Shown here: piece by piece, positions 17,549-28,836 of the stretch
How positions within the stretch are numbered: position 1 is the stretch's first letter
How the letters are laid out: each line of letters opens with the position of its first letter
Source of the DNA: Giardia intestinalis
Lineage: Eukaryota
Direction: 5' to 3' (one strand)
NCBI GenBank assembly: GCA_000002435.2
Contig: CM018790.1
DNA: 64,000 bases
Position numbers and translations under genes: made by a program
The notes under the pieces: model-generated
What the model was told of the DNA's origin: nothing
Database searches by the model: none
Seen by the model: only the letters and a program-made list of their open reading frames with translations

Positions 17549-19171
17549 ATGGTGGTTTCCCCCCATCATCTGAAGCGCCAGCGAATACCGCGCTTTCAAC
17601 GTATAGAGCCTGTTTCAAACCGCATGGTTGTGGACTCTCTCTCCAAAACGCGCAGGTCTCGATCATACCAACGCGGCTCTATTGCGATGCCTCACCTTTA
17701 CAATAACAGGGTGTATGCTCCTCCCCGGCCAAAAGTGGAGATGATGGGGGTAGAGCCCACAACCTGTGAGATAGCTCTCATATTCATCAACAGCATATTC
17801 GCTGCATTTTCCTCCATGTATGTTAATGACTCCATAGCGCCTTTGAGTGTTTACTTGACAAAGTACTACGAAAACATAAATGATGAGCTTATTGGCTGGC
17901 TCTCATCGGTGATATTCTGCCCGTCTCTCTTCATGGCCCTTGTCATTGCGCCCTTCATAAACCGCTATGGGCCCATGAATGTCGGCATTTTTTGCCATAT
18001 CTGGTTCATAGTAACAACTATCATAATGCCCTTCATTCAACACAACTATGTGGCTCTGCTGATCATGCGTATTGTCTTTGGTTTGCTATCCGAGCCTTCA
18101 TGGCTCGTACAATCTGCGCTCATTGCAAAGTATATGCCTTCTAGATTGGAATCTCTGGGCTTTGGGGTCTGTATGAGCATCTCAACCTCAGCGAATCTAT
18201 TGGGATTTGGGTTTATCCCGCCCCTATTTTCAAAGATTGACATCCACAAAATTCAGCATCCCATAAATAGACAAGATCCATTATTTCTCGAGTTTGAAAA
18301 TAAAATCAAATTGGCCTACTGGCTCAATGTTGTCGTGTGTGTAATCTCCTTCGGTATTTATCTTGCATGCGGACTACCTCTGTTGCGCATTGACAAAGCC
18401 ATCAAAAAGATCAACCAAGAGCGCGAAGACCAGTCGCTGGCGTTTAGACCGGAGCTTCCTGTCTATATGGATAAAAAGATTTTGCCCACACTCCCCAGCA
18501 AGAGCAATCGCATACCCTTCCTATACAAATTGAAGCATGCATTTATGCTTCCTATGGACTACTGGCCGCCAAATTTAGCTTTTTCACTTCTCCTGGGGTG
18601 TGCATACGGTTGCCAGACGCTGATACTGAGTTATCTCTCTGCAAACAAGAATGGCATTTCAGAGGAAACCGTGGAATATTTTGGCATAGTCCGATCAGTC
18701 ATGAGCGTTGTCGGAGGGCCGGTTAGCGGTTTGCTGGTTGGAGCTATCGGACAGAGGCCACTTCTAACCCTCCTAGGGTATATCATGGCCATTGCAGGCT
18801 TTGTACTAACTATCTTCCTCCCTGACTGGTACAATATGATTCCAATGGCAATGATAGGGTTTGTGGACGGTGGGAGTGCAGCGTTCACCAAGAGTTTGCT
18901 CAGCAGCGTGGTGCCGTATGACCAGCTCAGCATCGCATACGCCATCGACGAGAGCCTGCTCAATCTCTGGCAGTTTGCTCTCCCGCCGATTGCCGGCCGG
19001 ATAAGTGACGTGATGAAGGAGACAGACAGCGCTGGAAAGCCAACCGAGCGGTCCTTTGGTACCCCGCTGTTTTATTCAATTGCAACAGGAATAGGCCTAA
19101 TACCCGCTGTGACTCTCGTCATCAGAGACCGGACCCGCTTTCGTGGGAAGCTGAGCCTCAGACCCGAGTAA
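17549..19171 (+). CDS. Multi-pass membrane transporter, major-facilitator-superfamily-like (540 aa)
   Basis: About 12 hydrophobic helices in a 6+6 arrangement with a central hydrophilic loop. The basic N-terminal extension suggests the true start may be an internal Met (MMGVEPTT). Confidence 0.5.
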   Translation: MVVSPHHLKRQRIPRFQRIEPVSNRMVVDSLSKTRRSRSYQRGSIAMPHLYNNRVYAPPRPKVEMMGVEPTTCEIALIFINSIFAAFSSMYVNDSIAPLSVYLTKYYENINDELIGWLSSVIFCPSLFMALVIAPFINRYGPMNVGIFCHIWFIVTTIIMPFIQHNYVALLIMRIVFGLLSEPSWLVQSALIAKYMPSRLESLGFGVCMSISTSANLLGFGFIPPLFSKIDIHKIQHPINRQDPLFLEFENKIKLAYWLNVVVCVISFGIYLACGLPLLRIDKAIKKINQEREDQSLAFRPELPVYMDKKILPTLPSKSNRIPFLYKLKHAFMLPMDYWPPNLAFSLLLGCAYGCQTLILSYLSANKNGISEETVEYFGIVRSVMSVVGGPVSGLLVGAIGQRPLLTLLGYIMAIAGFVLTIFLPDWYNMIPMAMIGFVDGGSAAFTKSLLSSVVPYDQLSIAYAIDESLLNLWQFALPPIAGRISDVMKETDSAGKPTERSFGTPLFYSIATGIGLIPAVTLVIRDRTRFRGKLSLRPE

Positions 19172-19173
19172 AT
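19167..19173 (+). terminator. Putative Giardia polyadenylation signal AGTAAAT overlapping the TAA stop of the transporter gene
   Basis: The sequence cccgAGTAAATgg matches the AGTRAAY consensus, with the stop codon embedded in it. Confidence 0.4.
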
Positions 19174-20617
19174 GGCTGGAGCCACATAAAGACTTCATGA
19201 TATCCGGAGGAAAGTTCCGGTTTTAGCAGTAGCCAGACGTGAGTTATGGATGCGCATTGACGATGCAGGACGCTAAACCCCGTTGATTACTTCTAAACAA
19301 TACACCCTACGAAAGCTCGTGCATGCGATGATGTACTCTATCTCGCAGCGATAACTCATCGATATGGCCCAGGTGCTTTCCACTGTTGCGCAAATACTTA
19401 TATGTACACTGCCAAACTGAGGGGCAAAGATGGCTTAACAGAACATAGTAGCAATTGATGGCTGCAGAAGGCTGCTTGTAGCGTCACCAGTGTAGGTTGA
19501 TACAGGTCCATAAAGACACTGTCCCGGAGAATGCTTCAGCAATTTTACAGTGAGACAGGCATTTCACCGAATGTGCTGTTTACTAGGGTGTAGAATATCT
19601 ACAATAATAGCTTCAGTGGTGCTAGTGAGGCGGTTCTCAGGATGATCGACTGCGGGGTTGGTACTGTGCAGAGTGCAGCCCAGTGACTTGTGTCCTTCAT
19701 TCAACACCGTTCCAGTACTACGTTCGTTAGGAGAGGTGATGGGTGCCTGGAGTAGTCTGACGAGCTCCCTGGCTGTTGATCTTTGAGTGTGGTCTAGAAC
19801 AAGCACTTTCTTGAGGATACTCCTTATGAGGTCATCTTCAACTGCACTCAGGCTGAGCCTTCACCCGTCGACGAAGACATTCCTCAGGTGCTGCTCCCAG
19901 GAGATCAGGCATTTGAAAGCGGAGAGCTCGTAGGCAATAGCACCGAAGACCCGACGTCGGACGCAGGACCGGTCTCGCCCCTGAGGTGGGTCTTGGGGGC
20001 CATGTATGCTTGGTTCCCAAAATGGCACTCCCATTGTGCAGGACATCCTTCAGAGCCCGAAGTCCGCAAGAGCTGAGCCTGCCATCTCTGCTGGCATCGA
20101 CCTTGTCGGGGTCGTGAAGGTAGGCGAGGATGATGGCAATCTGCTCCATGATGGAGAGCATTGCATCGATAGGGTTGTCGGTTCTTGCACAATCGGTAAT
20201 CGCATCTTGAGGCACCGATCCCAGCGGTCCATGACGATGAAGACAGATCAGGCGTCTCTGAGCACCTGGTAGTGCCTAATGGCATCTAGGTGTGAGCGTC
20301 TGGAAATGGTGGCCAGCACGACCCAGTGGCCTCCGTGAGCTTCCCACTCTGAGCCTTGGATAACTACCTATCACATGGACAGTACCAAAACTGCCCACAT
20401 CAAGCACCCCTCCTCGCATCGATGCAGCTCGTCGGCGGGCACAGGATATCGAGTGCACCGTCCCCGGCCATGACGGTATCAACGGCACTGTGCAGAGCAC
20501 GCTCGGGGGCAGGGGAGCGGCCACCCCTGCTCCCGGTTGCAGGCTGGCTGGCGAAGTATACGAGGCGCACCCGCTTGTCAGGCAGCTGCACCACTAGTGA
20601 CGCATTTACTACCTAAG
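19174..20617. other. Roughly 1.45 kb GC-rich region with only short, mutually overlapping ORFs on both strands. No confident gene; possibly a decayed gene.
   Basis: Lies between convergent stop codons (transporter + strand, VSP - strand). Composition is unlike the short AT-rich intergenic regions elsewhere in the window. Minus frame 2 is open from about 20524 to 19838 except for one stop near 20276. Confidence 0.3.
20604..20610 (-). terminator. Putative polyadenylation signal AGTAAAT (minus strand), about 8 nt downstream of the VSP stop codon
   Basis: Reverse complement of atttact, matching AGTRAAY, sits immediately 3' of ...CRGKA-TGA, as is typical for VSP genes. Confidence 0.5.
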
Positions 20618-22816
20618 TCACGCCTTCCCCCTGCAGAGGAACCACCAGCAGAGGAAGCCCACGAGGCCCCCCACGACAGCGACCACAGCGACGGAGATCC
20701 CCGCGATGGCCCCCGTGGAGAGCCCGCTCCTGTTGGTGTTCTGTATGAGGTAGCAGAGGACAGGCCCTTTATTGTTGGTTGGGGGAGCGCAGTTGGCGCA
20801 GTTGGCGACGCCGGTGATGGATCCGCCGTCGCTCTTGTCGCATGCTATGCACTTTTCTTTGGACAGGTAGTACCCTGCAGCGCACACCGTGCACTTGGTG
20901 GCGTCGTCCGCATTGCACTCGGAGCACCCAGTGGCGCAGGGAACGCACTTCTTAGTGTTACCGCCAGTCTTAGCATATCCAGCCTTGCACGTGTCGCACT
21001 GGTCCTGGCTGGTGCACGTCTTACATCCGGCCGAGCAAGTGATGAGCGCGCCGTTATTCAGTTTGTACCCGTCGGCCGGAGTCTGACAGGTATCGCCGGC
21101 CGGTGCTGCCTCCTCACAGACGTTCTTTCCAGGGAACTTAGTCGTCTCGTAGCAGCCCCCGTTCATACGAAGAAATCCGTTGGTGCATGAATTACACATA
21201 CCCTTGGCAACGCTTCCAGCCTTACAAGTGGCTGCAGCACGGACAGTTGTTGAGCTACAGACGCCATTTTGAGGATACTCTGTCGCTGTGGCGCACTCAG
21301 AGCAGTAGCTAGCACCATCGATAGTGAGCCCACACGTCTTGCATGCTCCTGCTCCTGTGCCCGTTGCGCATCCAGCTCCGCACGTGCCCTTAGTACCGTC
21401 GTCCCCGTACCTGAGTGCTTTTCCGGTGGGACACTCGGTGCAGTCGCTGGCAGTGCCTGCGCTGCATGTCTTGCAGCTTTCGTGGCACGGAGAGCATGCG
21501 TCGCCGTTTTTATAGAATCCGTCGCTGCATGCTTGGCACTGCCCTTGCCCATCGCAAGTCTTGCAGTTAGCCGCAGTGCACTCTTTACAGATTTTCTTTG
21601 CTCCTTCGGTAGCTCCATAGTAGTTTCCAATCTTAGCGCAGCTGTCTATGCACTGGCTTGTCGGCGTGAGATATGTGCTACTATCACAGTCTGTGCAGAC
21701 CTCGTTCTCCTTTCCTTCGTTGCTGCACGCCTTGCATCCGGGGGTCTTGCAGTTGCTTACCGCCTCGCACGTAGTTTTGTCGGCACTAGGCTTGTATCCA
21801 TCCGTGCAGGCGGAGCATGTAACGAGGGCAGCCCCTGATCGGCCACTAACCAGAGCACACGTGGCGCAATTGGCAATTCCGTCGGTGCTGTCATTACAAG
21901 GGAGGCATTTATTTCCTGCACTGCTGTCATCCTTGGGGAAGAAGCCGTCTTTGCATTGGTCTTTTTGTACGCACGACGTGCCTTCGCTTGTGGTTTTCAG
22001 GTAGTTGTTATCGGTGCATTTTGTACACTTGATCTTCTTAGATTGCTCATCGTAGCTGCAGGTGTCGCAATTGGCAACGCCACCATTGAGGTTATCGCTG
22101 CAAGAAACACATTTGTTGCCATTCTCAGAATCATCAACTGCAACGAACTTATTAGTGCTACCAGAATCGCACTGGGCTTTATCCACACACGTATTATCCT
22201 TGAGGTACTTATCCTGGCCGCACCTGGTGCACTTGGCGTCTCCGCCGGCAGCGTCTGTCAGCGCCGCCCCGTCGCATCTCTCGCAGTACTGCACCCCCCT
22301 GTACGTTTTGCCGCTGTCGGTGAACCCGGTCGTGTCCGAGCACGATACCACAGAGTCCTTGGTATTCGCCCTCAGCGGGTTGAGGAAGTACCCCGGGGCC
22401 GCCTCGGTGCATACGCCATCTCCGTCGGAACTTAAGCACAGGCTGTGTCCAGGAAGGCCTTCTCCGCTGGAATAACAGCCGTCCTTGTACATGAATGAGT
22501 TGCCTCCGCACGTCGTACAAGCCCCGCTGGCGTGTGCTTTGCAAAGAGCTTTTTTATCCGCCTGCGTCTCCACGTCCTCACAAGCACCGTTCACGGGGGC
22601 GTAGTTTGCTCCGTTGCACTCGGAGCAGTATTGTTCTTGGCCGATGGTGACGCCACACGTTTTACACTTTCCATCGTCAGCTTCTTGGGTGCAGGCTGTC
22701 CGTGCCAGCTGAAGGATGACGATCGCGAGCAAAAATCTGCCGAACATTGGGCCGCCGACCTGCTGGGCGGCGCCGGCCTTCCCTGGGAGAGGCGGGGTCG
22801 TCTGATGTGCCGACAT
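20618..22816 (-). CDS. vsp: Variant-specific surface protein (VSP): cysteine-rich type I membrane protein with many CXXC motifs, a GGCY motif, a C-terminal TM helix and an invariant CRGKA tail
   Basis: The C-terminus reads ...GISVAVVAVVGGLVGFLCWWFLCRGKA then stop. There are dozens of CXXC repeats (CKTCG, CSECN, CTTCG and others) and NGGCYETT. A probable signal peptide starts at the internal Met (MFGRFLLAIVILQLARTA, ATG near 22747), 23 codons after the first ATG at 22816. Confidence 0.9.
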   Translation of the reverse strand: MSAHQTTPPLPGKAGAAQQVGGPMFGRFLLAIVILQLARTACTQEADDGKCKTCGVTIGQEQYCSECNGANYAPVNGACEDVETQADKKALCKAHASGACTTCGGNSFMYKDGCYSSGEGLPGHSLCLSSDGDGVCTEAAPGYFLNPLRANTKDSVVSCSDTTGFTDSGKTYRGVQYCERCDGAALTDAAGGDAKCTRCGQDKYLKDNTCVDKAQCDSGSTNKFVAVDDSENGNKCVSCSDNLNGGVANCDTCSYDEQSKKIKCTKCTDNNYLKTTSEGTSCVQKDQCKDGFFPKDDSSAGNKCLPCNDSTDGIANCATCALVSGRSGAALVTCSACTDGYKPSADKTTCEAVSNCKTPGCKACSNEGKENEVCTDCDSSTYLTPTSQCIDSCAKIGNYYGATEGAKKICKECTAANCKTCDGQGQCQACSDGFYKNGDACSPCHESCKTCSAGTASDCTECPTGKALRYGDDGTKGTCGAGCATGTGAGACKTCGLTIDGASYCSECATATEYPQNGVCSSTTVRAAATCKAGSVAKGMCNSCTNGFLRMNGGCYETTKFPGKNVCEEAAPAGDTCQTPADGYKLNNGALITCSAGCKTCTSQDQCDTCKAGYAKTGGNTKKCVPCATGCSECNADDATKCTVCAAGYYLSKEKCIACDKSDGGSITGVANCANCAPPTNNKGPVLCYLIQNTNRSGLSTGAIAGISVAVVAVVGGLVGFLCWWFLCRGKA

Positions 22817-23252
22817 GCACTAACAACGGCTACTGAACGTTAAAGTAACCAGCATTCACACTGGTATTTCGTTACTGACAGAGTAAAGTATGATTATGCG
22901 CTAGAGATAAGGTCCCAAGTCTGGATTTGCATTAGGATGAGCGAGTACACCACCAATTAATTAAGACAGCGTAAACACACTACAATTATATAACCAATAT
23001 CAAATGAAGCTGATTAGATGCGTACCTTTATAGGCTCCATGGCCATATGTACTCCTGACTTGGAATTTAAATGAATTTTAACAGCTCAGTGTGCACCTAG
23101 TTCACATGTCAAGTTGCCAATTGTCAAGTCGACCAGATGAGTGACAGCTTAACGGCAGGTGTAATCAGCATACTAAGAGATGACTAGGTGATGGGGGCTC
23201 ATATTAAATTAAAAAGCTTGCCCATCAACCACAAACAAATTTTTTGCCAAAA

Positions 23253-24464
23253 ATGTCTCTCTCCTCGGACTTCATCCGTACACCCATTTTCGATAAGATT
23301 CTGTCCACGATAACAGCCAGCATAACAGACTTTAGCACTCGGCAAGCGCCTCTTTTAGCCTATTCGACCATCGAGCCCTCTATGCAGAACGTTAAGAGCG
23401 CATCTGCCGCTGCTGCTCCTGCTGCTCTTTCTCCGTACGTCATAAACCTCATAGACGACACCATATCTAGATTCAAAAAGCATCCTTTTAGACTTAGTTT
23501 TGATATCAATCATCATCAACCTGAGAAGTTAGAGGCCCTTAACGCCAGTATTGTGTTCCAGTATCCATATAAACTGAGTCCAGTTGACCGAAAGAAGCTC
23601 TCTCCTACAGATCCTATTCTGGGAAGTTGGGCCAAAGGGGTCATCTGCGCGCACGTTCAGGGTTGGAAGGGAAGACGGATGGCCAGGTCCTTGATAACTC
23701 CACGAGATGTGCTTCCATTGACAGAGATGCACCTGTATCGTTGCCAGCAGGCGGTTCTTCGCGCCCGCAAGGAGCAGAATGTTATCCCAGTCAACGTGCA
23801 GACGGGGCAACCTGCGGTTTCCGACAAGAAGAAGGTTCTGTCGTCAATACTCACTACTCCTGGATCCACTCCCGTGGCCAGTACACCCTCTGGATCAGGG
23901 CTCAATCTCCAACTTATCCGAGACAATCGCGCAATTCTCAAATCTGTTCTGAAAGAATTCAATGTCCAGTTTGAGAAGCGGTTTAATAGAGAGCCCAGTA
24001 GGACAGAGAAGGAGGCCCTCCGTCCCCTCTATGTTGAATACAAAACTCTTAAGGTGTTTCTTCCGGATGACGACGACGATGATAAGCCGAGCAAGTCCAC
24101 AGGACGTGAGAAGCGTAATCCTACGACTGCAGGATCTGGAAAGTTGGGTTCGGCTGAATCCGAAGCCCTTATTCTTTCTAAGGTTGCACAGGTTCGTGCA
24201 ACTGTTGAAGAAGCGAATAAGTTCTTGCAACGGCCAGTGCCTACGGATCAGGCGCGTCTAAAGCAGTTCAAACGAGAGGTACAGAAGTGTCTCTTTGAAC
24301 TGAAGGAGCAATACGAGACCGTACACGCTGATGTTAATGCTTACAAAGTCAAAACAGGCAAATACCCCGGGGATCTGACATCTAAATGGGCACAGAATTG
24401 TGTTGATACGTATCATATGCTTTATAGCGCATATGAAAAGATCAAGCGGAAGCTGGACGCGTAG
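23253..24464 (+). CDS. Hypothetical protein (about 403 aa from the first ATG)
   Basis: The track start at 23244 is TTG. The first ATG is at 23253 (ccaaaaATGtct). Includes a poly-Asp patch (PDDDDDDKPSK) and a C-terminal helical region. Confidence 0.55.
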   Translation: MSLSSDFIRTPIFDKILSTITASITDFSTRQAPLLAYSTIEPSMQNVKSASAAAAPAALSPYVINLIDDTISRFKKHPFRLSFDINHHQPEKLEALNASIVFQYPYKLSPVDRKKLSPTDPILGSWAKGVICAHVQGWKGRRMARSLITPRDVLPLTEMHLYRCQQAVLRARKEQNVIPVNVQTGQPAVSDKKKVLSSILTTPGSTPVASTPSGSGLNLQLIRDNRAILKSVLKEFNVQFEKRFNREPSRTEKEALRPLYVEYKTLKVFLPDDDDDDKPSKSTGREKRNPTTAGSGKLGSAESEALILSKVAQVRATVEEANKFLQRPVPTDQARLKQFKREVQKCLFELKEQYETVHADVNAYKVKTGKYPGDLTSKWAQNCVDTYHMLYSAYEKIKRKLDA

Positions 24465-24592
24465 CTGACCTCTTGCATCACATAAACTCTCAGTTTTGTC
24501 TTTCACAGCGTCCCCGCTACACTTGCAACACTGCCCAATTGTCCTCTTATGTACGACCCAGGCATTTACTTTGTGCTCGGCACGTCCTCGGG

Positions 24593-25084
24593 TTAGCAAA
24601 GCGGCCCAAGTATGTTGAGTGCACACTTATCCACGCCATCTACTACGTACGTGTTCATTCTAAATCGCACCAATGTCCCCGGGCGTAGCCTGAAGGAGAC
24701 AAGAAGGCCCATGGAGGGACGACCAGGGGTCCGAACCCACTCCCTTAGGTCCTCAATAGAGCAGTAGCTTGCTCCAGTATCTAGATCCTTCACTGAGACA
24801 TAGTCATCAACGTTGACGTCTATCTGGCGTGCCGGGATGCGATCAAGAGGTATGGTCTTTACCTGAGAAAGAGGTTGGCTGAAAGAGAATTTCAGACGGA
24901 ATCTGTCCGCTCCTCTGTATGTACCAATTATCTCTGAGGATATCCAATTGGATATGACGCCTTTTTCGTCGTGAAGAACCACATCAGACTGTCGTGCCGC
25001 CGTACTAAAGTAGACGTTTTCCTTAGTGTAGATGCATGCTGCTCTGGCGATCGTGGGCATACGAATCTTCTCTGGCGCTTGCAT
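24593..25084 (-). CDS. Small hypothetical protein (163 aa)
   Basis: Begins at a true ATG and the sequence is protein-like, but there is no A-rich initiator context and no recognised motif. Confidence 0.4.
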   Translation of the reverse strand: MQAPEKIRMPTIARAACIYTKENVYFSTAARQSDVVLHDEKGVISNWISSEIIGTYRGADRFRLKFSFSQPLSQVKTIPLDRIPARQIDVNVDDYVSVKDLDTGASYCSIEDLREWVRTPGRPSMGLLVSFRLRPGTLVRFRMNTYVVDGVDKCALNILGPLC

Positions 25085-25287
25085 GGGTGCTCTCTGTCAA
25101 GATGATCAGACTCTTGAGCCCTTGGAGATTTGAAAAACAAATGTTAAGCGATCTGGGCTGCTATAGCCGGTGTACATCCCCACACATTTTTGCACACAGT
25201 TTAAAGCGTCTCGTGCTTTCCGACTTAACGAGTCTTCTTTTACATTACCAAAAATAAGAAACCTGTTTCTGATCTGTTTTAGCGACA

Positions 25288-28200
25288 ATGTGGGATAATC
25301 AAGCAGCTACCACTCCACGGCAGACGCCATTTAGTGACGACGCACATCACCGTGATGAGGTAGGGCTTGTTGGTACAGGACTTGTTAGAAAAAAGGGACT
25401 TGGGCTTATGACTACGATCCTCGTAGTTCCTCTTCATCAGCATCCGCCAGAGGTACAGATAAAGATTGCGCATGCTATGCGTGACTGCTTGAATATCACC
25501 AATCCCTATTTGGCCAGTTATGTAGACGTTACTCACAGCATGCGAGAAGCTAAACTTACCATTGAGACGGAGTTCTTTGGCCGTGGTTCTCTTCGGAAAA
25601 AGATCGACTCTCACTTTAAGCATGGTCTAATTTTTCCTGAAGCAGAGATTTGGAACGTGGTAGCACACATTGCTGCTGGGCTTGCCTATCTTCATAGCCC
25701 TCTTCCACTGCCAGGAAAGAAGGCTGGCTTTCTTCTTCATCTTGGTCTGTCCCCGGACTCATTAATGGTTTATAGTGACGCAGAGTACAAGCTCACAGCG
25801 TATTCTATCAGACAACTTCTGTTTCGGCCCATCCCGCCCGCGGAGTATGCACGGATAATCGGTATCGAATCGGAAAATGCACGTTGGTATATGGCCCCAG
25901 AGCTGCGTCGGGCCTTTTCCAGGTATGGTAGTTTGTGTCAATTGAGTACTAAGTGTGACATTTGGTCTCTGGGCATATTGTTACTGGATATGGTGTCTCT
26001 AGCGCTTTACAGAGACAACACCTCCGATCCTTCGACGGAGCTGGTGAAGAACGACAGCACAATTCCTGCTGTTATTATACTGCCCAATGATGACCGGCCA
26101 CTCAGAGTCAAGATGGACGATCTGAGTGAAGAGCATAATAATAGTACGGATGACGAAGATGCCAAGAGGGTTTCTACGACTTCCTTGTCTTCTTCCGTCG
26201 ACTACCATGGGTTCTGTCATCCTCCACGGTCTCTTCTTAAAACACTCTTGGACGACGGCTTGGACACACCTTATTCAAAGGAGCTTATCACCCTGATCAA
26301 GCAGTGTGTCTCAGAAGATCCCTCGGAGAGGCCTTCTGCCACAATCATATGCAAGCTCCCGTCCGTTCAGGAGGCTTTTTTGCGCTTAGAGGCACATAGG
26401 CTTGAAGATCACAAGTTATTACTGCAGGCGTTGCGGTTGAACGATGTGGCAGCTATACGAACATATATTAGAAGCTTTGATGCCAGTCCTTCGGATATTC
26501 TAAAAGACATCCTCAGTCCATGCTATACTCCGTACATTCAGATTTTCAGCGAGCGCATTCTCCTAAAGAATCTCTTTGTTACACTACCGAGCAGATCCGG
26601 AACCCCGACCTATATTTACACAGACCTCATGCAGGCAGCCGAGTGTGGTGATATACCTGCAATAGAAGCGTCCATCAATCGGGACTTTGGCTATATGTAC
26701 ATGGGATTTTCCAGTGGAACAGCTCTAATGATGGCTGCAAGGGAAGGAAACACAGAGTGTATAAAGCTCTTATTGGCAGAAGTCGGGATAGTAACGGCCA
26801 AAGGAGAGACAGCGCTAATGTATGCGGCTCAGAACGGGTGTCTAGCGGCTACGCAACTCTTACTTTGTGAGGCAAGAAAGCAGAATTATTATGGTGAAAC
26901 TGCTCTTATGTATGCTGTGCAGAACGGATTCGTTCACATAGTCAACCTACTAGCTGCTCGAGAGGCCCAACTTCAGCGAAAGGATGGGCTGACGGCCCTA
27001 ATGCTTGCTGCCAAGCTCGGTCGTGGAAGATGCGTGGCGATCCTAATGCATCACGAGGCGCAAATGCGTTCTTCTTTGGGAGAAACTGCTTTGGAGCTCG
27101 CTCTGAAGTATAGACATGGGCACTGTGCCGACCTGCTTCTGGATTATGAATCTGGCCTGATTTGTAGCAACGGAGCGTCTCCCCTGAGGTTTGCAGTAGA
27201 TAATGGAGCTATCAAAGTTGTCCCGCGTCTATTATATCTTTGCAGATCAATGGAATCGTCCTACTTCATTAATATGATCTATGTGCTGGTTTCAGGGCAA
27301 ACTGCGGAATGCTATGCCAGTCTTCTCATTGCTTACAATCAGCTACTCGACAAGAAACTCTCGCTAACTGTCACTGAGCCAGAGGCAAAGCGTGCCCATC
27401 AAGACAACTGCATCAATGCGTTTTGCTGGGCCCTTAATATGATGAGACCAGATTGTGCATGGAAGGTTCCCATTTTAGTCGACCTCACGGTGCCCCCTGC
27501 TGCAACGTCTGAGGAGCTCTGGGCCTCTGTTCTTGTGCCATATATGGAGAAAAGAGGCATTAGCTGTCAGCTCATTGAGGCCCTTCTTAATTATTCGATT
27601 ATGAAGAAGGATCACGAAATGGTGTGGCATTTGACGCAGTATATTGCAGAGCACACAGATACCATAATCGTCAGCACATGGAAGAGGCACGGAGATCGGG
27701 TTAACTTTAAAACTCGATTAATGGAAAATGCTGAGAACGGGGATCTTTCCGGTGTGCTTGCCAACATGGACCAGTTAGGCTACGTGTATGGAAATGACAC
27801 GGCTCTCTTGCTTGCGGCCAAAAATCATCACTTTGACTGCATTAAGCTTCTCTTGTGTGAGCAAGGCATTACTGGGCCAGACTGTGTCACAGCCCTTATG
27901 GTTACTGCCTGCAAGGGCGATGTCGAATCGCTAAAGCTCCTGTTAACAGAATCGTCCCGTTGTGATGAAGATGGAAACTCTGCTCTGATGCTTGCAGCAG
28001 AAGCAGGACATGACGCATGTGTGCAGTTGCTTATTAAGAGGTGCAAGGTTTACCAAGATCGTGCGGGGCGAACGGCGCTGATTCGCGCCGCGGAGGCCTG
28101 CAATCTAAGCACTGTTAATCTTCTCAGGAACGAAATTGGAGTTGGAGGAATGACAAGGCTTATGGTGTCTGCTGTTCTGGGAGAGGTGAATGGCGTCAAG

Positions 28201-28836
28201 GAGCACATGGAGGAGGCGGGAATGCAAACATGTTGTGGCTGGACGGCTCTTATGTTTGCAGCCAAGGCGGGGCATGTAAAGTGCGTCGAGCTTTTACTAC
28301 AGGAAGCAGGCATCCACAATGGAGACGAGCGCACGGCCATCTTCATGGCAGCCAAGCAGGGTCACAAGGAATGCATAGAGCTCCTATTTGATAAGGAAGG
28401 GGCCCATAGGGACCCGGACGGCTGGACTATCCTGATGGCCACGGCCTACGGAGGACATGCGGAGTGTGTTGGGGCCATTCTGTGTCTCGATGCATTAAGT
28501 GGTGACAGGGAGGCTGCCGGCTTTCAGTCTATTGTTGGAATGAAGGCATATGATGGCAGGACAGCTCTGATGTTGGCTGCTGACCAGGGGCACGCTCAAT
28601 GTGTGAAGCTGCTTCTTGAAAAAGAAGCACAACAGACTGATGTGCTCGGGGAGAGTGCACTCTTCAAGGCCGTCCGGTGGGAGCATCCTGACTGTGTTAC
28701 ATTGCTGGCTCCATACGAAGCCCAGCTCACAAATAAGAACAATCAAACAGCCCTAGATCTCGCCACAGTCATTCTAGGGCGAACCGTAGAAACCAGTGCC
28801 TTACAAACCTGCATTAGTATCCTTACCGAGGAGTAA
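25288..28836 (+). CDS. NEK-like protein kinase domain (apparently catalytically inactive) fused to a long array of ankyrin repeats; the Giardia NEK / Protein 21.1 family architecture
   Basis: N-terminal kinase-like fold with APE (MAPELRRAF) but a degenerate Gly-loop and no VAIK lysine. The HRDLKPxN box is replaced by HLGLSPDSL. The C-terminal two-thirds contain more than 15 ankyrin repeats (GETALMYAAQNGCLAATQLLL, GLTALMLAAKLGRGRCVAILM, GWTALMFAAKAGHVKCVELLL and others). Confidence 0.8.
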   Translation: MWDNQAATTPRQTPFSDDAHHRDEVGLVGTGLVRKKGLGLMTTILVVPLHQHPPEVQIKIAHAMRDCLNITNPYLASYVDVTHSMREAKLTIETEFFGRGSLRKKIDSHFKHGLIFPEAEIWNVVAHIAAGLAYLHSPLPLPGKKAGFLLHLGLSPDSLMVYSDAEYKLTAYSIRQLLFRPIPPAEYARIIGIESENARWYMAPELRRAFSRYGSLCQLSTKCDIWSLGILLLDMVSLALYRDNTSDPSTELVKNDSTIPAVIILPNDDRPLRVKMDDLSEEHNNSTDDEDAKRVSTTSLSSSVDYHGFCHPPRSLLKTLLDDGLDTPYSKELITLIKQCVSEDPSERPSATIICKLPSVQEAFLRLEAHRLEDHKLLLQALRLNDVAAIRTYIRSFDASPSDILKDILSPCYTPYIQIFSERILLKNLFVTLPSRSGTPTYIYTDLMQAAECGDIPAIEASINRDFGYMYMGFSSGTALMMAAREGNTECIKLLLAEVGIVTAKGETALMYAAQNGCLAATQLLLCEARKQNYYGETALMYAVQNGFVHIVNLLAAREAQLQRKDGLTALMLAAKLGRGRCVAILMHHEAQMRSSLGETALELALKYRHGHCADLLLDYESGLICSNGASPLRFAVDNGAIKVVPRLLYLCRSMESSYFINMIYVLVSGQTAECYASLLIAYNQLLDKKLSLTVTEPEAKRAHQDNCINAFCWALNMMRPDCAWKVPILVDLTVPPAATSEELWASVLVPYMEKRGISCQLIEALLNYSIMKKDHEMVWHLTQYIAEHTDTIIVSTWKRHGDRVNFKTRLMENAENGDLSGVLANMDQLGYVYGNDTALLLAAKNHHFDCIKLLLCEQGITGPDCVTALMVTACKGDVESLKLLLTESSRCDEDGNSALMLAAEAGHDACVQLLIKRCKVYQDRAGRTALIRAAEACNLSTVNLLRNEIGVGGMTRLMVSAVLGEVNGVKEHMEEAGMQTCCGWTALMFAAKAGHVKCVELLLQEAGIHNGDERTAIFMAAKQGHKECIELLFDKEGAHRDPDGWTILMATAYGGHAECVGAILCLDALSGDREAAGFQSIVGMKAYDGRTALMLAADQGHAQCVKLLLEKEAQQTDVLGESALFKAVRWEHPDCVTLLAPYEAQLTNKNNQTALDLATVILGRTVETSALQTCISILTEE

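What the first reader, a model, noticed from the sequence alone, without database searches (positions are those of the whole stretch)
19174..20617. Unusually long, GC-rich, ORF-fragmented spacer downstream of the VSP
Intergenic regions elsewhere in the window are 20-430 bp and AT-rich. This one is about 1.45 kb, GC-rich, and tiled by short overlapping ORFs on both strands. On the minus strand one frame is open for about 690 nt (about 20524 to 19838) apart from a single stop near 20276; part of it reads ...DCARTDNPIDAMLSIMEQIAIILAYLHDPDKVD..., and a further frame-shifted piece continues as ...LKKVLVLDHTQRSTARELVRLLQAP.... This could be a decayed gene, a non-coding RNA locus, or simply GC-rich sequence where stops are rare. 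VSP loci are recombinationally active, so a VSP-adjacent gene remnant is plausible.
Basis: seen in the sequence. Interest (0 to 1): 0.5.

Follow-up and report, generated by a model that had tools for sequence, protein, structure and literature searches.

The report
Dead Nek kinase gene beside VSP
The long "spacer" is the wreck of a Nek-family protein kinase gene lying just downstream of a Giardia surface-antigen (VSP) gene; it was already listed as a pseudogene in the 2011 Giardia kinome paper, so it is real but ordinary.

Summary
The window is Giardia intestinalis WB. The 1,446-nt gap between the MFS transporter (17549-19171, +) and the VSP (20618-22816, -) is real and is the longest gene-free stretch in the window. 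About 970 nt of it (20585->19615, minus strand) is a decayed Nek kinase gene. It aligns to the intact P15 gene GLP15_890 (Nek-GL4) over residues 1-366 of 415 at 56% identity, but only across about 8-10 frameshifts and 2 in-frame stops. The start codon is lost and the catalytic loop is deleted. Most lesions recur in an independent assemblage A2 assembly, and substitutions since the A1/A2 split show no codon-position bias. This is a true pseudogene, not sequencing error. It is already published: every piece of pseudogene "GK430, Nek-GL4" in Manning et al. 2011 (Additional file 1) is an exact substring of this window. No ncRNA, tRNA or retroelement signal was found. The remaining 414 nt (19172-19585) is plain intergenic DNA. 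Side observation: the close intact P15 relatives all sit directly 3' of a VSP gene, so VSP and Nek seem to duplicate as a unit. Interest is low.

The parts
20618..22816 (-). VSP gene ('VSP with INR', XP_001708164 / KAE8302112). It ends in ...FLCWWFLCRGKA*. It is the upstream neighbour on the same strand as the pseudogene.
   Evidence: Exact sequence look-up; ORF list; CRGKA* tail scan.
20604..20620 (-). VSP stop codon (TGA, 20620-20618) and the sequence just 3' of it, ACTTAGGTAGTAAAT. This contains AGTAAA (20610->20605), which matches the Giardia/VSP polyadenylation signal. That identification rests on my own knowledge and was not tested here.
   Evidence: Read directly from the sequence. This stretch and the VSP tail (20738-20599) are 83% identical to the VSP 3' ends of P15 loci L004 and L005.
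19615..20585 (-). Nek-GL4 protein kinase pseudogene (Manning et al. 2011 'GK430'). It is collinear with residues 1-366 of the 415-aa P15 kinase GLP15_890. Lesions: Met1 replaced by Leu (CTG); frameshifts near 20446, 20417, 20326, 20201, 20050, 20022, 19951, 19910 and 19894; in-frame stops at 20248-20250 and 19861-19863; loss of about 20 codons that encode the catalytic loop (NGRPLPGVVHRNLxPANVLI). The N-terminal 65 codons (20585-20417) rest only on my frameshift-aware alignment and on collinearity with the DH locus.
19516..19614 (-). Run-on of the last pseudogene reading frame (…EAIIVDILHPSKQHIR*NACLTVKLLKHSPGQC). Manning's reconstruction includes it, but it has no similarity to the C-terminal 49 residues of GLP15_890. 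Homology to the P15 Nek genes ends at 19611-19615.
19304..19585 (.). Residual intergenic DNA, 46.5% GC. It has no similarity to any Nek, to P15 or GS loci, or to the rest of the window. It is syntenic with assemblage A2 (DH). The site at about 19586-19601 (GGGTGTAGAATATCTA) is where DH carries a 3.1-kb reverse-transcriptase element flanked by a 16-nt target-site duplication. WB has the empty site.
19172..19303 (+). 3' flank of the MFS transporter gene. AGTAAA overlaps the stop codon at 19167-19172. The flank is conserved next to the MFS gene in P15 at 79% identity and in DH.
17549..19171 (+). MFS transporter gene (XP_001708168 / KAE8302111), the conserved core-genome neighbour. Synteny with P15 and GS breaks immediately after it.

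Best explanation
The spacer is a non-functional relic, not a functional element. An intact ancestor was a short Giardia-specific Nek-GL4 kinase gene without ankyrin repeats, placed head-to-tail directly 3' of a VSP gene. Close intact relatives still have that arrangement in assemblage E (P15). In the assemblage A lineage this copy lost its start codon and its catalytic loop, and it accumulated about 8-10 frameshifts and 2 stops. Most of this damage predates the A1/A2 split. Since then it has drifted with no constraint on the kinase frame. The 2020 re-annotation places no gene here. Shown here: homology, the lesion map, the shared lesions in A2, the lack of codon-position bias, and identity with the published pseudogene GK430. 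Inferred: that the VSP tail plus Nek was duplicated as one unit, so the dead kinase is a passenger of VSP-locus duplication or recombination.
For: Organism and flanks: exact matches to G. intestinalis WB proteins. The consecutive accessions KAE8302111 and KAE8302112 for the MFS and VSP genes suggest that no protein-coding gene is annotated between them in the 2020 annotation. Homology: a hand-stitched translation hits P15 'Kinase, NEK' proteins at E=1e-45, 1e-40 and 1e-36. tblastn of those proteins hits 20416-19612 in three minus frames at E=1e-31 to 1e-42. Frameshift-aware alignment to P0024 (GLP15_890) gives 317 aligned codons, 56% identity, 8 frameshifts and 2 stops. Comparison with the A2 copy reveals one more 1-nt deletion, at 20050, that splits ALADFGL from KDVLHNGSA. 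DNA identity to the P15 loci is 72-83% from 20738 to 19611. The homolog-guided conceptual translation matches only Pfam Pkinase (E=2e-5), while P0024 itself scores 95.6 bits. Not sequencing error: the independent DH assembly is collinear at about 92% identity across the pseudogene, with four small indels there (1, 1, 3 and 1 nt). No selection: WB-DH substitutions fall 22/21/33 on codon positions 1/2/3 (p=0.17), against 0/1/14 in the adjacent MFS gene. Published: Manning et al. 2011 (PMC3218828) report 30 WB kinase pseudogenes, 29 of them Nek-GL4. The Additional file 1 row 'G114 / GL50803_113450 / GK430 / Nek-GL4 / Pseudogene' matches window 20709-19516 exactly, piece by piece. GLP15_890 is classed Nek-GL4 in the same table.
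Against: No single reading frame of the region gives any Pfam hit. Even the homolog-guided translation stays below Pfam's gathering score (24.5 vs 31.7 bits). The kinase assignment therefore rests on homology to Giardia Neks, not on the generic profile. The N-terminal 65 codons and the lost-ATG call rest on a weak alignment. Transcription could not be measured here. Manning's table gives a low, non-zero SAGE signal (R 1.95, max 0.0054% of tags), so some RNA may be made. A non-coding role, for example as a recombination substrate, cannot be excluded by sequence analysis.
Confidence: 0.96

Rival explanations
1. The dead kinase is retained because it does something as DNA or RNA. It could be a conserved 3' homology arm that lets VSP genes recombine or convert between loci. 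It could also be a source of read-through or antisense RNA feeding the RNAi-type control of VSP expression.
For: The VSP tail plus Nek unit recurs. In P15, four of the five Nek-GL4 loci examined (the three close relatives plus P0034) lie 92-515 nt 3' of a VSP on the same strand. The Manning reconstructions of four WB pseudogenes of this clade (GK427, GK428, GK430, GK431) start with an out-of-frame reading of a VSP tail, so those four are also VSP-adjacent. WB-DH divergence rises from about 3-4% in the plain spacer to 8-14% towards the VSP. The out-of-frame string that follows from the 1-nt deletion at 20050 (RLSSCGLRALKDVLHNGSA) is shared with WB paralogs GK428 and GK450, but the deletion is absent from the DH ortholog. 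That hints at exchange between copies. The VSP body is mosaic between WB and DH.
Against: There is no direct evidence of function. Substitutions look neutral. Hitch-hiking with a duplicating VSP explains the linkage without any function. Two other GL4 Neks examined (L009, L010) are not VSP-linked. The SAGE signal is very low.
Confidence: 0.1
2. It is a non-coding RNA locus.
For: The region is long, GC-rich and unannotated. Manning's table shows a low SAGE signal.
Against: There is no Rfam match at E<=1 over 18900-20900 on either strand and no tRNA. The sequence is fully explained as ex-coding kinase DNA. Rfam coverage of Giardia-specific RNAs is limited, so this is not a strong exclusion.
Confidence: 0.02
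3. It is an intact gene mis-read because of sequencing or assembly errors, or it is expressed through programmed frameshifting.
For: The frameshifts are numerous and short. The 2007 annotation called three small ORFs here.
Against: An independent assembly of another isolate (DH) and an independent metagenome contig (L007) share most of the frameshift positions and the catalytic-loop deletion. The start codon is missing and two stops are present. The 2020 annotation dropped the ORFs. Codon positions evolve equally.
Confidence: 0.01
4. It is a plain GC-rich spacer or a retroelement remnant.
For: Open stretches of this length are expected by chance at this composition. A reverse-transcriptase element is inserted in the same spacer in DH.
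Against: Homology to Nek kinases at E=1e-31 to 1e-45. No reverse-transcriptase or other Pfam hit in any of the six frames of the WB spacer. WB has the empty insertion site.
Confidence: 0.01

Closest known systems
Pseudogene GK430 (G114, listed under GL50803_113450), Nek-GL4, in Manning et al. 2011, Genome Biol 12:R66, Additional file 1
   Same: It is this very locus. All seven pieces of the published conceptual translation are exact substrings of the window's minus-strand frames, 20709->19516.
   Different: Nothing essential. The published reconstruction follows the longest open frames, so several stretches are out of the true kinase frame (for example GRAGHHFQTLTPRCH and RLSSCGLRAL). It also begins inside the VSP tail. 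The alignment made here, guided by the intact P15 gene, gives a finer lesion map.
GLP15_890 (P0024; GK144b, Nek-GL4) and its P15 relatives P0025 and GLP15_3047 (P0026)
   Same: They are the closest intact relatives: 56% amino-acid identity over aligned codons and 72-77% DNA identity. They have the same short architecture without ankyrin repeats and the same position directly 3' of a VSP on the same strand.
   Different: They are open reading frames that pass the Pfam Pkinase threshold (95.6 bits for P0024). They sit at non-syntenic loci. They carry HRNLE/KP and ADPGL/AGLGL in place of HRD and DFG. By the K/D/D criterion used in Manning's table, that would class them as inactive pseudokinases (my inference). 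P0025's locus has a premature stop at codon 97.
WB paralogous pseudogenes GK427 (GL50803_101380), GK428 (15206), GK431 (106529) and GK450
   Same: They belong to the same Nek-GL4 clade. GK428, GK431 and GK450 show the same catalytic-loop deletion; the GK427 reconstruction stops upstream of that region. GK427, GK428 and GK431 have the same VSP-tail-adjacent position, because their reconstructions start with out-of-frame VSP tail sequence. All are pseudogenes.
   Different: They lie at different loci and differ by roughly 10-15% in the conceptual peptides.
NEK and ankyrin-repeat pseudogenes between VSP pairs in Giardia muris (Xu et al. 2020, Microb Genom, PMC7641422)
   Same: The same general pattern: truncated NEK pseudogenes in the DNA next to VSP genes, with NEK and ARP families associated with rearrangements.
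   Different: A different species and different Nek clades. There the remnants lie between inverted identical VSP pairs. Here there is a single VSP followed in tandem by one dead Nek.

Membership tests
Eukaryotic protein kinase domain (Pfam PF00069) | Significant match to the Pkinase profile above the curated threshold | tested here: not met
   Single frames give no hit. The hand-stitched translation gives E=0.12. The homolog-guided translation gives E=2.1e-5 and 24.5 bits, below the gathering score of 31.7. This is expected for a decayed copy that lacks the catalytic loop.
Eukaryotic protein kinase domain (Pfam PF00069) | Homology to bona fide kinase-domain proteins | tested here: met
   E=1e-45 to P0024, which itself scores 95.6 bits on Pkinase. 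tblastn gives E=1e-31 to 1e-42.
Eukaryotic protein kinase domain (Pfam PF00069) | Catalytic motifs: Gly-rich loop, VAIK lysine, HRD catalytic loop, DFG, APE | tested here: not met
   Remnants are present: VGSFGTV, ALADFGL (in a shifted frame), YMAPK. The catalytic-loop segment is deleted, and the region around the VAIK lysine is gapped. It cannot be an active kinase even if it were translated.
Giardia Nek-GL4 subfamily (Manning et al. 2011) | Kinase-domain similarity that places it with GL4 members | tested here: met
   The best relatives are P0024-P0026. P0024 is GLP15_890, classed Nek-GL4. The locus itself is listed as a Nek-GL4 pseudogene. WB's intact Neks are much more distant, at 48-65 bits against 141-196. 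No tree was built here.
Pseudogene | Reading frame disrupted relative to intact homologs, and the disruptions are real rather than sequencing errors | tested here: met
   About 8-10 frameshifts, 2 stops and Met1->Leu. Most frameshifts and the catalytic-loop deletion are shared with the independent DH assembly and with ENA contig L007.
Pseudogene | No purifying selection on the former frame | tested here: met
   WB-DH substitutions by codon position are 22/21/33 (chi-square p=0.17), against 0/1/14 in the MFS gene next door and 13/8/123 for MFS between WB and P15. Counts are small and no formal dN/dS was computed.
Pseudogene | Not translated into a protein | not testable with these tools
   Only indirect evidence is available. 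No gene is annotated here in the 2020 annotation, and the SAGE signal is low in Manning's table.
Non-coding RNA family (Rfam) | Match to a covariance model | tested here: not met
   No match at E<=1 in 18900-20900 and no tRNA in the window.
Giardia retroelement | Reverse-transcriptase coding remnant | tested here: not met
   No RVT or other Pfam hit in six frames of the WB spacer. The RVT_1-bearing insertion is present only in DH and L007.

The most novel reading that the evidence does not exclude
VSP genes and short Nek-GL4 kinases form a tandem 'VSP -> Nek' unit that duplicates and converts as one piece across Giardia assemblages. The dead kinase copies persist because they provide a shared 3' homology tract for recombination among VSP loci. 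They would then be part of the machinery that diversifies the antigen repertoire. The VSP-repertoire paper (Adam et al. 2010) never mentions kinases, and the kinome paper does not discuss VSP adjacency in its main text. The specific linkage may therefore not have been described for G. intestinalis.
Probability: 0.1. Interest if true: 0.5.

Novelty: already known. Interest (0 to 1): 0.12.

Why it matters
It matters little beyond correct annotation. The three 2007 'hypothetical proteins' inside this region (GL50803_89815, 113449, 29316) are artefacts of a dead kinase gene, and the locus is one of the roughly 30 Nek pseudogenes already reported for WB. The only wider point is the repeated VSP -> Nek-GL4 tandem arrangement. 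If a genome-wide census confirmed it, it would tie the turnover of the fastest-evolving kinase subfamily to the duplication and recombination of surface-antigen genes.

Tried and rejected
(1) A Pfam scan of all six raw frames found nothing, and my first hand-stitched peptide reached only E=0.12. The generic profile was too weak, so I switched to Giardia homologs.

(2) Rfam at a permissive threshold and ARAGORN found nothing.

(3) I first took the end of homology with ENA contig L007 at 19586 as the 3' edge of a duplicated cassette. I rejected this once the DH locus showed that L007 is the A2 version of the same locus, and that the break is a 3.1-kb retroelement insertion with a target-site duplication.

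(4) I first read 'CGLRALKDVL' as a degenerate HRDLKPxN. This was wrong. Comparison with the P15 and DH copies shows that the catalytic loop is deleted. The true frame reads ALADFGL, followed after a 1-nt deletion by KDVLHNGSA.

(5) Look-ups of the WB Neks P0036 and P0044 to test VSP adjacency in WB returned 'not on record'.

(6) The orphan segment 19304-19585 was searched against all fetched loci, the window and the Nek protein set, with no hits.

(7) The phage, plasmid and E. coli collections, the structure prediction and fold-search tools, the representative-protein search and the bacterial/archaeal genome collection were not used, because they cannot bear on a Giardia pseudogene that sequence evidence already identifies.

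Full report
**Where we are.** Exact-sequence look-ups show that the window is Giardia intestinalis WB (ATCC 50803). The ORF at 17549-19171 (+) is the MFS transporter XP_001708168/KAE8302111. The ORF at 20618-22816 (-) is 'VSP with INR', XP_001708164/KAE8302112. Three short ORFs inside the gap were 'hypothetical proteins' in the 2007 annotation: GL50803_89815 (19905-20285, -), GL50803_113449 (20006-20272, +) and GL50803_29316 (inside 19838-20215, -). The MFS and VSP proteins carry consecutive accession numbers in the 2020 annotation, which suggests that no protein-coding gene is annotated between them.

**Checking the observation.** The gap is 1,446 nt (19172-20617) and is the longest stretch in the window without a long ORF. 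All other gaps are 20-427 nt, apart from an 823-nt gap that turns out to hold a 163-aa ORF. GC is 53.6% overall, against 47.8% for the window and 13-50% for the other spacers. The excess sits entirely in the VSP-proximal 1,032 nt (56.5%); the MFS-proximal 414 nt are 46% GC. The quoted peptides, the frame that is open apart from one stop, and the stop at 20276-20278 are all as described. The ORF tiling alone is not remarkable: the longest open run is 145 codons, against 120 +/- 29 in shuffles.

**What it is.**
- Read on the minus strand, the three frames carry kinase-like pieces in the right order: GSFGTV, HxxxIRHYQ, VFIVMDR, IMEQIAxxLAYLH, ALADFGL, AYMAPK, GAIAYEL, LVLDHTQRSTARELV.
- Pfam sees nothing in single frames and only a weak Pkinase hit in my first stitched version (E=0.12).
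- A search of the large protein collection with the stitched peptide returned just five hits. Four carry precomputed Pfam kinase domains, and the three with names are Giardia P15 proteins (two 'Kinase, NEK' and GLP15_3047): P0024, P0025 and P0026, at E=1e-45, 1e-40 and 1e-36. The fifth hit, and the best, is an unnamed ORF from an ENA metagenome contig with no Pfam domain.
- tblastn of these proteins against the whole window hits 20416-19612 in three minus-strand frames (E=1e-31 to 1e-42). It also hits, weakly, the intact ankyrin-repeat Nek at 25288-28836.
- I wrote a frameshift-aware protein-to-DNA alignment. It places residues 1-366 of the 415-aa P0024 on window 20585->19615, with 317 aligned codons and 56% identity.
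- That alignment shows frameshifts near 20446, 20417, 20326, 20201, 20022, 19951, 19910 and 19894, and stops at 20248-20250 and 19861-19863. It shows Leu (CTG) at the position of Met1, and a block of about 20 missing codons that removes the catalytic loop (NGRPLPGVVHRNLxPANVLI).
- Comparison with the A2 copy adds one more lesion: a 1-nt deletion at 20050 between ALADFGL and KDVLHNGSA.
- The homolog-guided conceptual translation matches only Pfam Pkinase (E=2e-5, 24.5 bits, below the 31.7 threshold). P0024 itself scores 95.6 bits.
- At the DNA level, window 20738->19611 is 72-83% identical to the three P15 loci. The match starts inside the conserved VSP tail.

**It is really dead.**
- The orthologous locus in the assemblage A2 isolate DH (L011) has the same order: MFS, remnant, VSP.
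- The DH remnant is collinear with WB at about 92% identity, with four small indels within the pseudogene (1, 1, 3 and 1 nt). Most frameshifts and the loop deletion therefore predate the A1/A2 split and are not sequencing errors.
- Contig L007 from an ENA metagenome is a third independent copy of the A2-type locus, 96.6% identical to DH. It shares most of the frameshift positions and the loop deletion.
- WB-DH substitutions fall 22/21/33 on inferred codon positions 1/2/3 (p=0.17). In the MFS gene next door the counts are 0/1/14.

**It is already known.** Manning et al. 2011 (Genome Biol 12:R66, PMC3218828) report 30 kinase pseudogenes in WB, 29 of them from the fast-evolving Nek-GL4 subfamily. 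They say they extended fragmentary gene predictions into longer pseudogene sequences. Their Additional file 1 has the row 'G114, GL50803_113450, GK430, Other/Nek/Nek-GL4, Pseudogene'. All seven pieces of its sequence are exact substrings of this window's minus-strand translation, from 20709 to 19516. P0024 is GLP15_890, also classed Nek-GL4. For GK430 the table gives SAGE R 1.95 and a maximum of 0.0054% of tags, which means very low and non-regulated expression.

**The rest of the spacer.** The first 132 nt after the MFS stop are conserved next to the MFS gene in P15 (79%) and in DH. The 282 nt at 19304-19585 match nothing except the DH ortholog. They are best described as ordinary intergenic DNA. 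Homology to the P15 Nek genes stops at 19611-19615, so the last 49 codons of the ancestral gene are not recognisable.

**Context and mechanism.**
- Synteny with P15 and GS ends right after the MFS gene, and a VSP lies nearby in each isolate. This agrees with published reports that VSP, NEK, Protein 21.1 and HCMP genes mark synteny breaks.
- All three close intact P15 relatives lie directly 3' of a VSP on the same strand. The gaps between annotated genes are 96, 504 and 515 nt. The P0024-like reading frame starts closer to the VSP in L005 and L006, about 96-107 nt from the stop. So does the more distant GL4 Nek P0034, with a 92-nt gap.
- Two ankyrin-bearing relatives (L009, L010) are not VSP-linked.
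- Manning's reconstructions of WB pseudogenes GK427, GK428, GK430 and GK431 begin with an out-of-frame reading of a VSP tail. GK428, GK431 and GK450 share this window's catalytic-loop deletion.
- My inference is that the VSP 3' end and the Nek gene duplicate as one unit, and that the kinase was already crippled when some of the copies were made. The remnant here is then a passenger with no function of its own.
- A role as a homology tract for VSP recombination cannot be excluded, but it has no direct support. I give it 0.1.

**Verdict.** The 'decayed gene' reading is correct and can be named precisely as the Nek-GL4 pseudogene GK430. The feature is already in the literature. Interest is low.

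Noticed in passing
L011:10038-13204 (DH, assemblage A2), corresponding to window ~19586-19601: The A2 isolate DH carries a 3,135-nt insertion in this same spacer. It has a reverse-transcriptase ORF (Pfam RVT_1, E=1.5e-17), 169-nt inverted terminal repeats (88% complementary) and a perfect 16-nt target-site duplication, GGGTGTAGAATACTTA. WB has the empty site (GGGTGTAGAATATCTA). ENA contig L007 carries the same junction. Inverted ends together with a reverse transcriptase are not what I would expect of the LINE-like GilM/GilT elements; that expectation is from my own knowledge.
   Followed up: partly
L004:5952-9248, L005:4-1545, L006:5608-8885, L008:3977-7269 (all P15): Four Nek-GL4 genes in P15 lie directly 3' of a VSP gene on the same strand. 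The gaps between annotated genes are 92-515 nt. The VSP tails read CRGKA*, CRGKA*, CRDKA* and CRGRA*. Two other relatives (L009 in P15, L010 in DH) have no VSP upstream. The VSP-repertoire paper of Adam et al. 2010 does not mention kinases at all.
   Followed up: partly
window 20050, versus L011 and Manning's GK428/GK450 strings: A 1-nt deletion in WB at 20050 produces the out-of-frame string RLSSCGLRALKDVLHNGSA. The same string appears in WB paralogs GK428 and GK450. The DH ortholog of this locus lacks the deletion and reads ALADFGLCKDVLHNGSA. Conversely, at 20172-20271 (WB-DH identity only 86%), the DH copy resembles the WB paralogs (ADCARTGNPTDTVLSIMEQ) more than the WB copy does (TDCARTDNPIDAMLSIMEQ). 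This suggests gene conversion among copies, but I did not test it.
   Followed up: no
window 20739-23986 versus L011:14349-17623: The VSP is mosaic between WB and DH. Blocks 21257-21823 (96.7% identity) and 22182-23986 (93%) align, while 20739-21256 and 21824-22181 do not align at all. This looks like segmental replacement within an otherwise orthologous VSP.
   Followed up: no
L001:11624-21623 (P15 syntenic locus): In P15 the MFS gene is followed by 4.3 kb of GC-rich DNA with no called genes and two extra genes (422 and 236 aa). Then come uncalled minus-strand remnants of a different Nek (…LVHRDLRPTNVLVSADGEHFVIAGLGLC… at 18957-19319), with coiled-coil and ankyrin parts (17654-18865, 19650-20015). 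Last is a Pfam-VSP gene whose tail is not CRGKA (…FRKRAGVPPLYKQSTVASTQ*). Window 19841-20007 matches L001:18950-19119 at only 68.6%.
   Followed up: partly
L006:7595-8885 (P15, GLP15_3047) and L005:232-1545: GLP15_3047 is annotated as 294 aa starting at MDRCDG. However, a P0024-like frame appears open from an ATG at about 7595, so the gene may be under-called at its N-terminus. The L005 copy (P0025, 301 aa) has a premature stop at codon 97 of the P0024-like frame, so it is probably a truncated or dying copy.
   Followed up: no
Manning et al. 2011, Additional file 1, row G881/GK450: GK450 is labelled GL50803_89815. But GL50803_89815 (XP_001708165) is the 126-aa ORF at window 19905-20285, and none of GK450's pieces occurs in this window. 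Either the label is mixed up or GK450 is a paralog elsewhere in the genome.
   Followed up: partly
window 24593-25084 (-): A 163-aa ATG ORF fills most of the only other long gap (24465-25287). It has no Pfam hit.
   Followed up: partly
window 25288-28836 (+): An intact 1,182-aa Nek-type kinase with many ankyrin repeats (Pkinase E=4e-16, Ank_2 E=5e-89). It lies 2.5 kb from the VSP and is only distantly related to the pseudogene (39 bits to P0024).
   Followed up: partly
window 28876-49704 (-): A single 6,942-aa ORF spanning 20.8 kb. I did not examine it.
   Followed up: no
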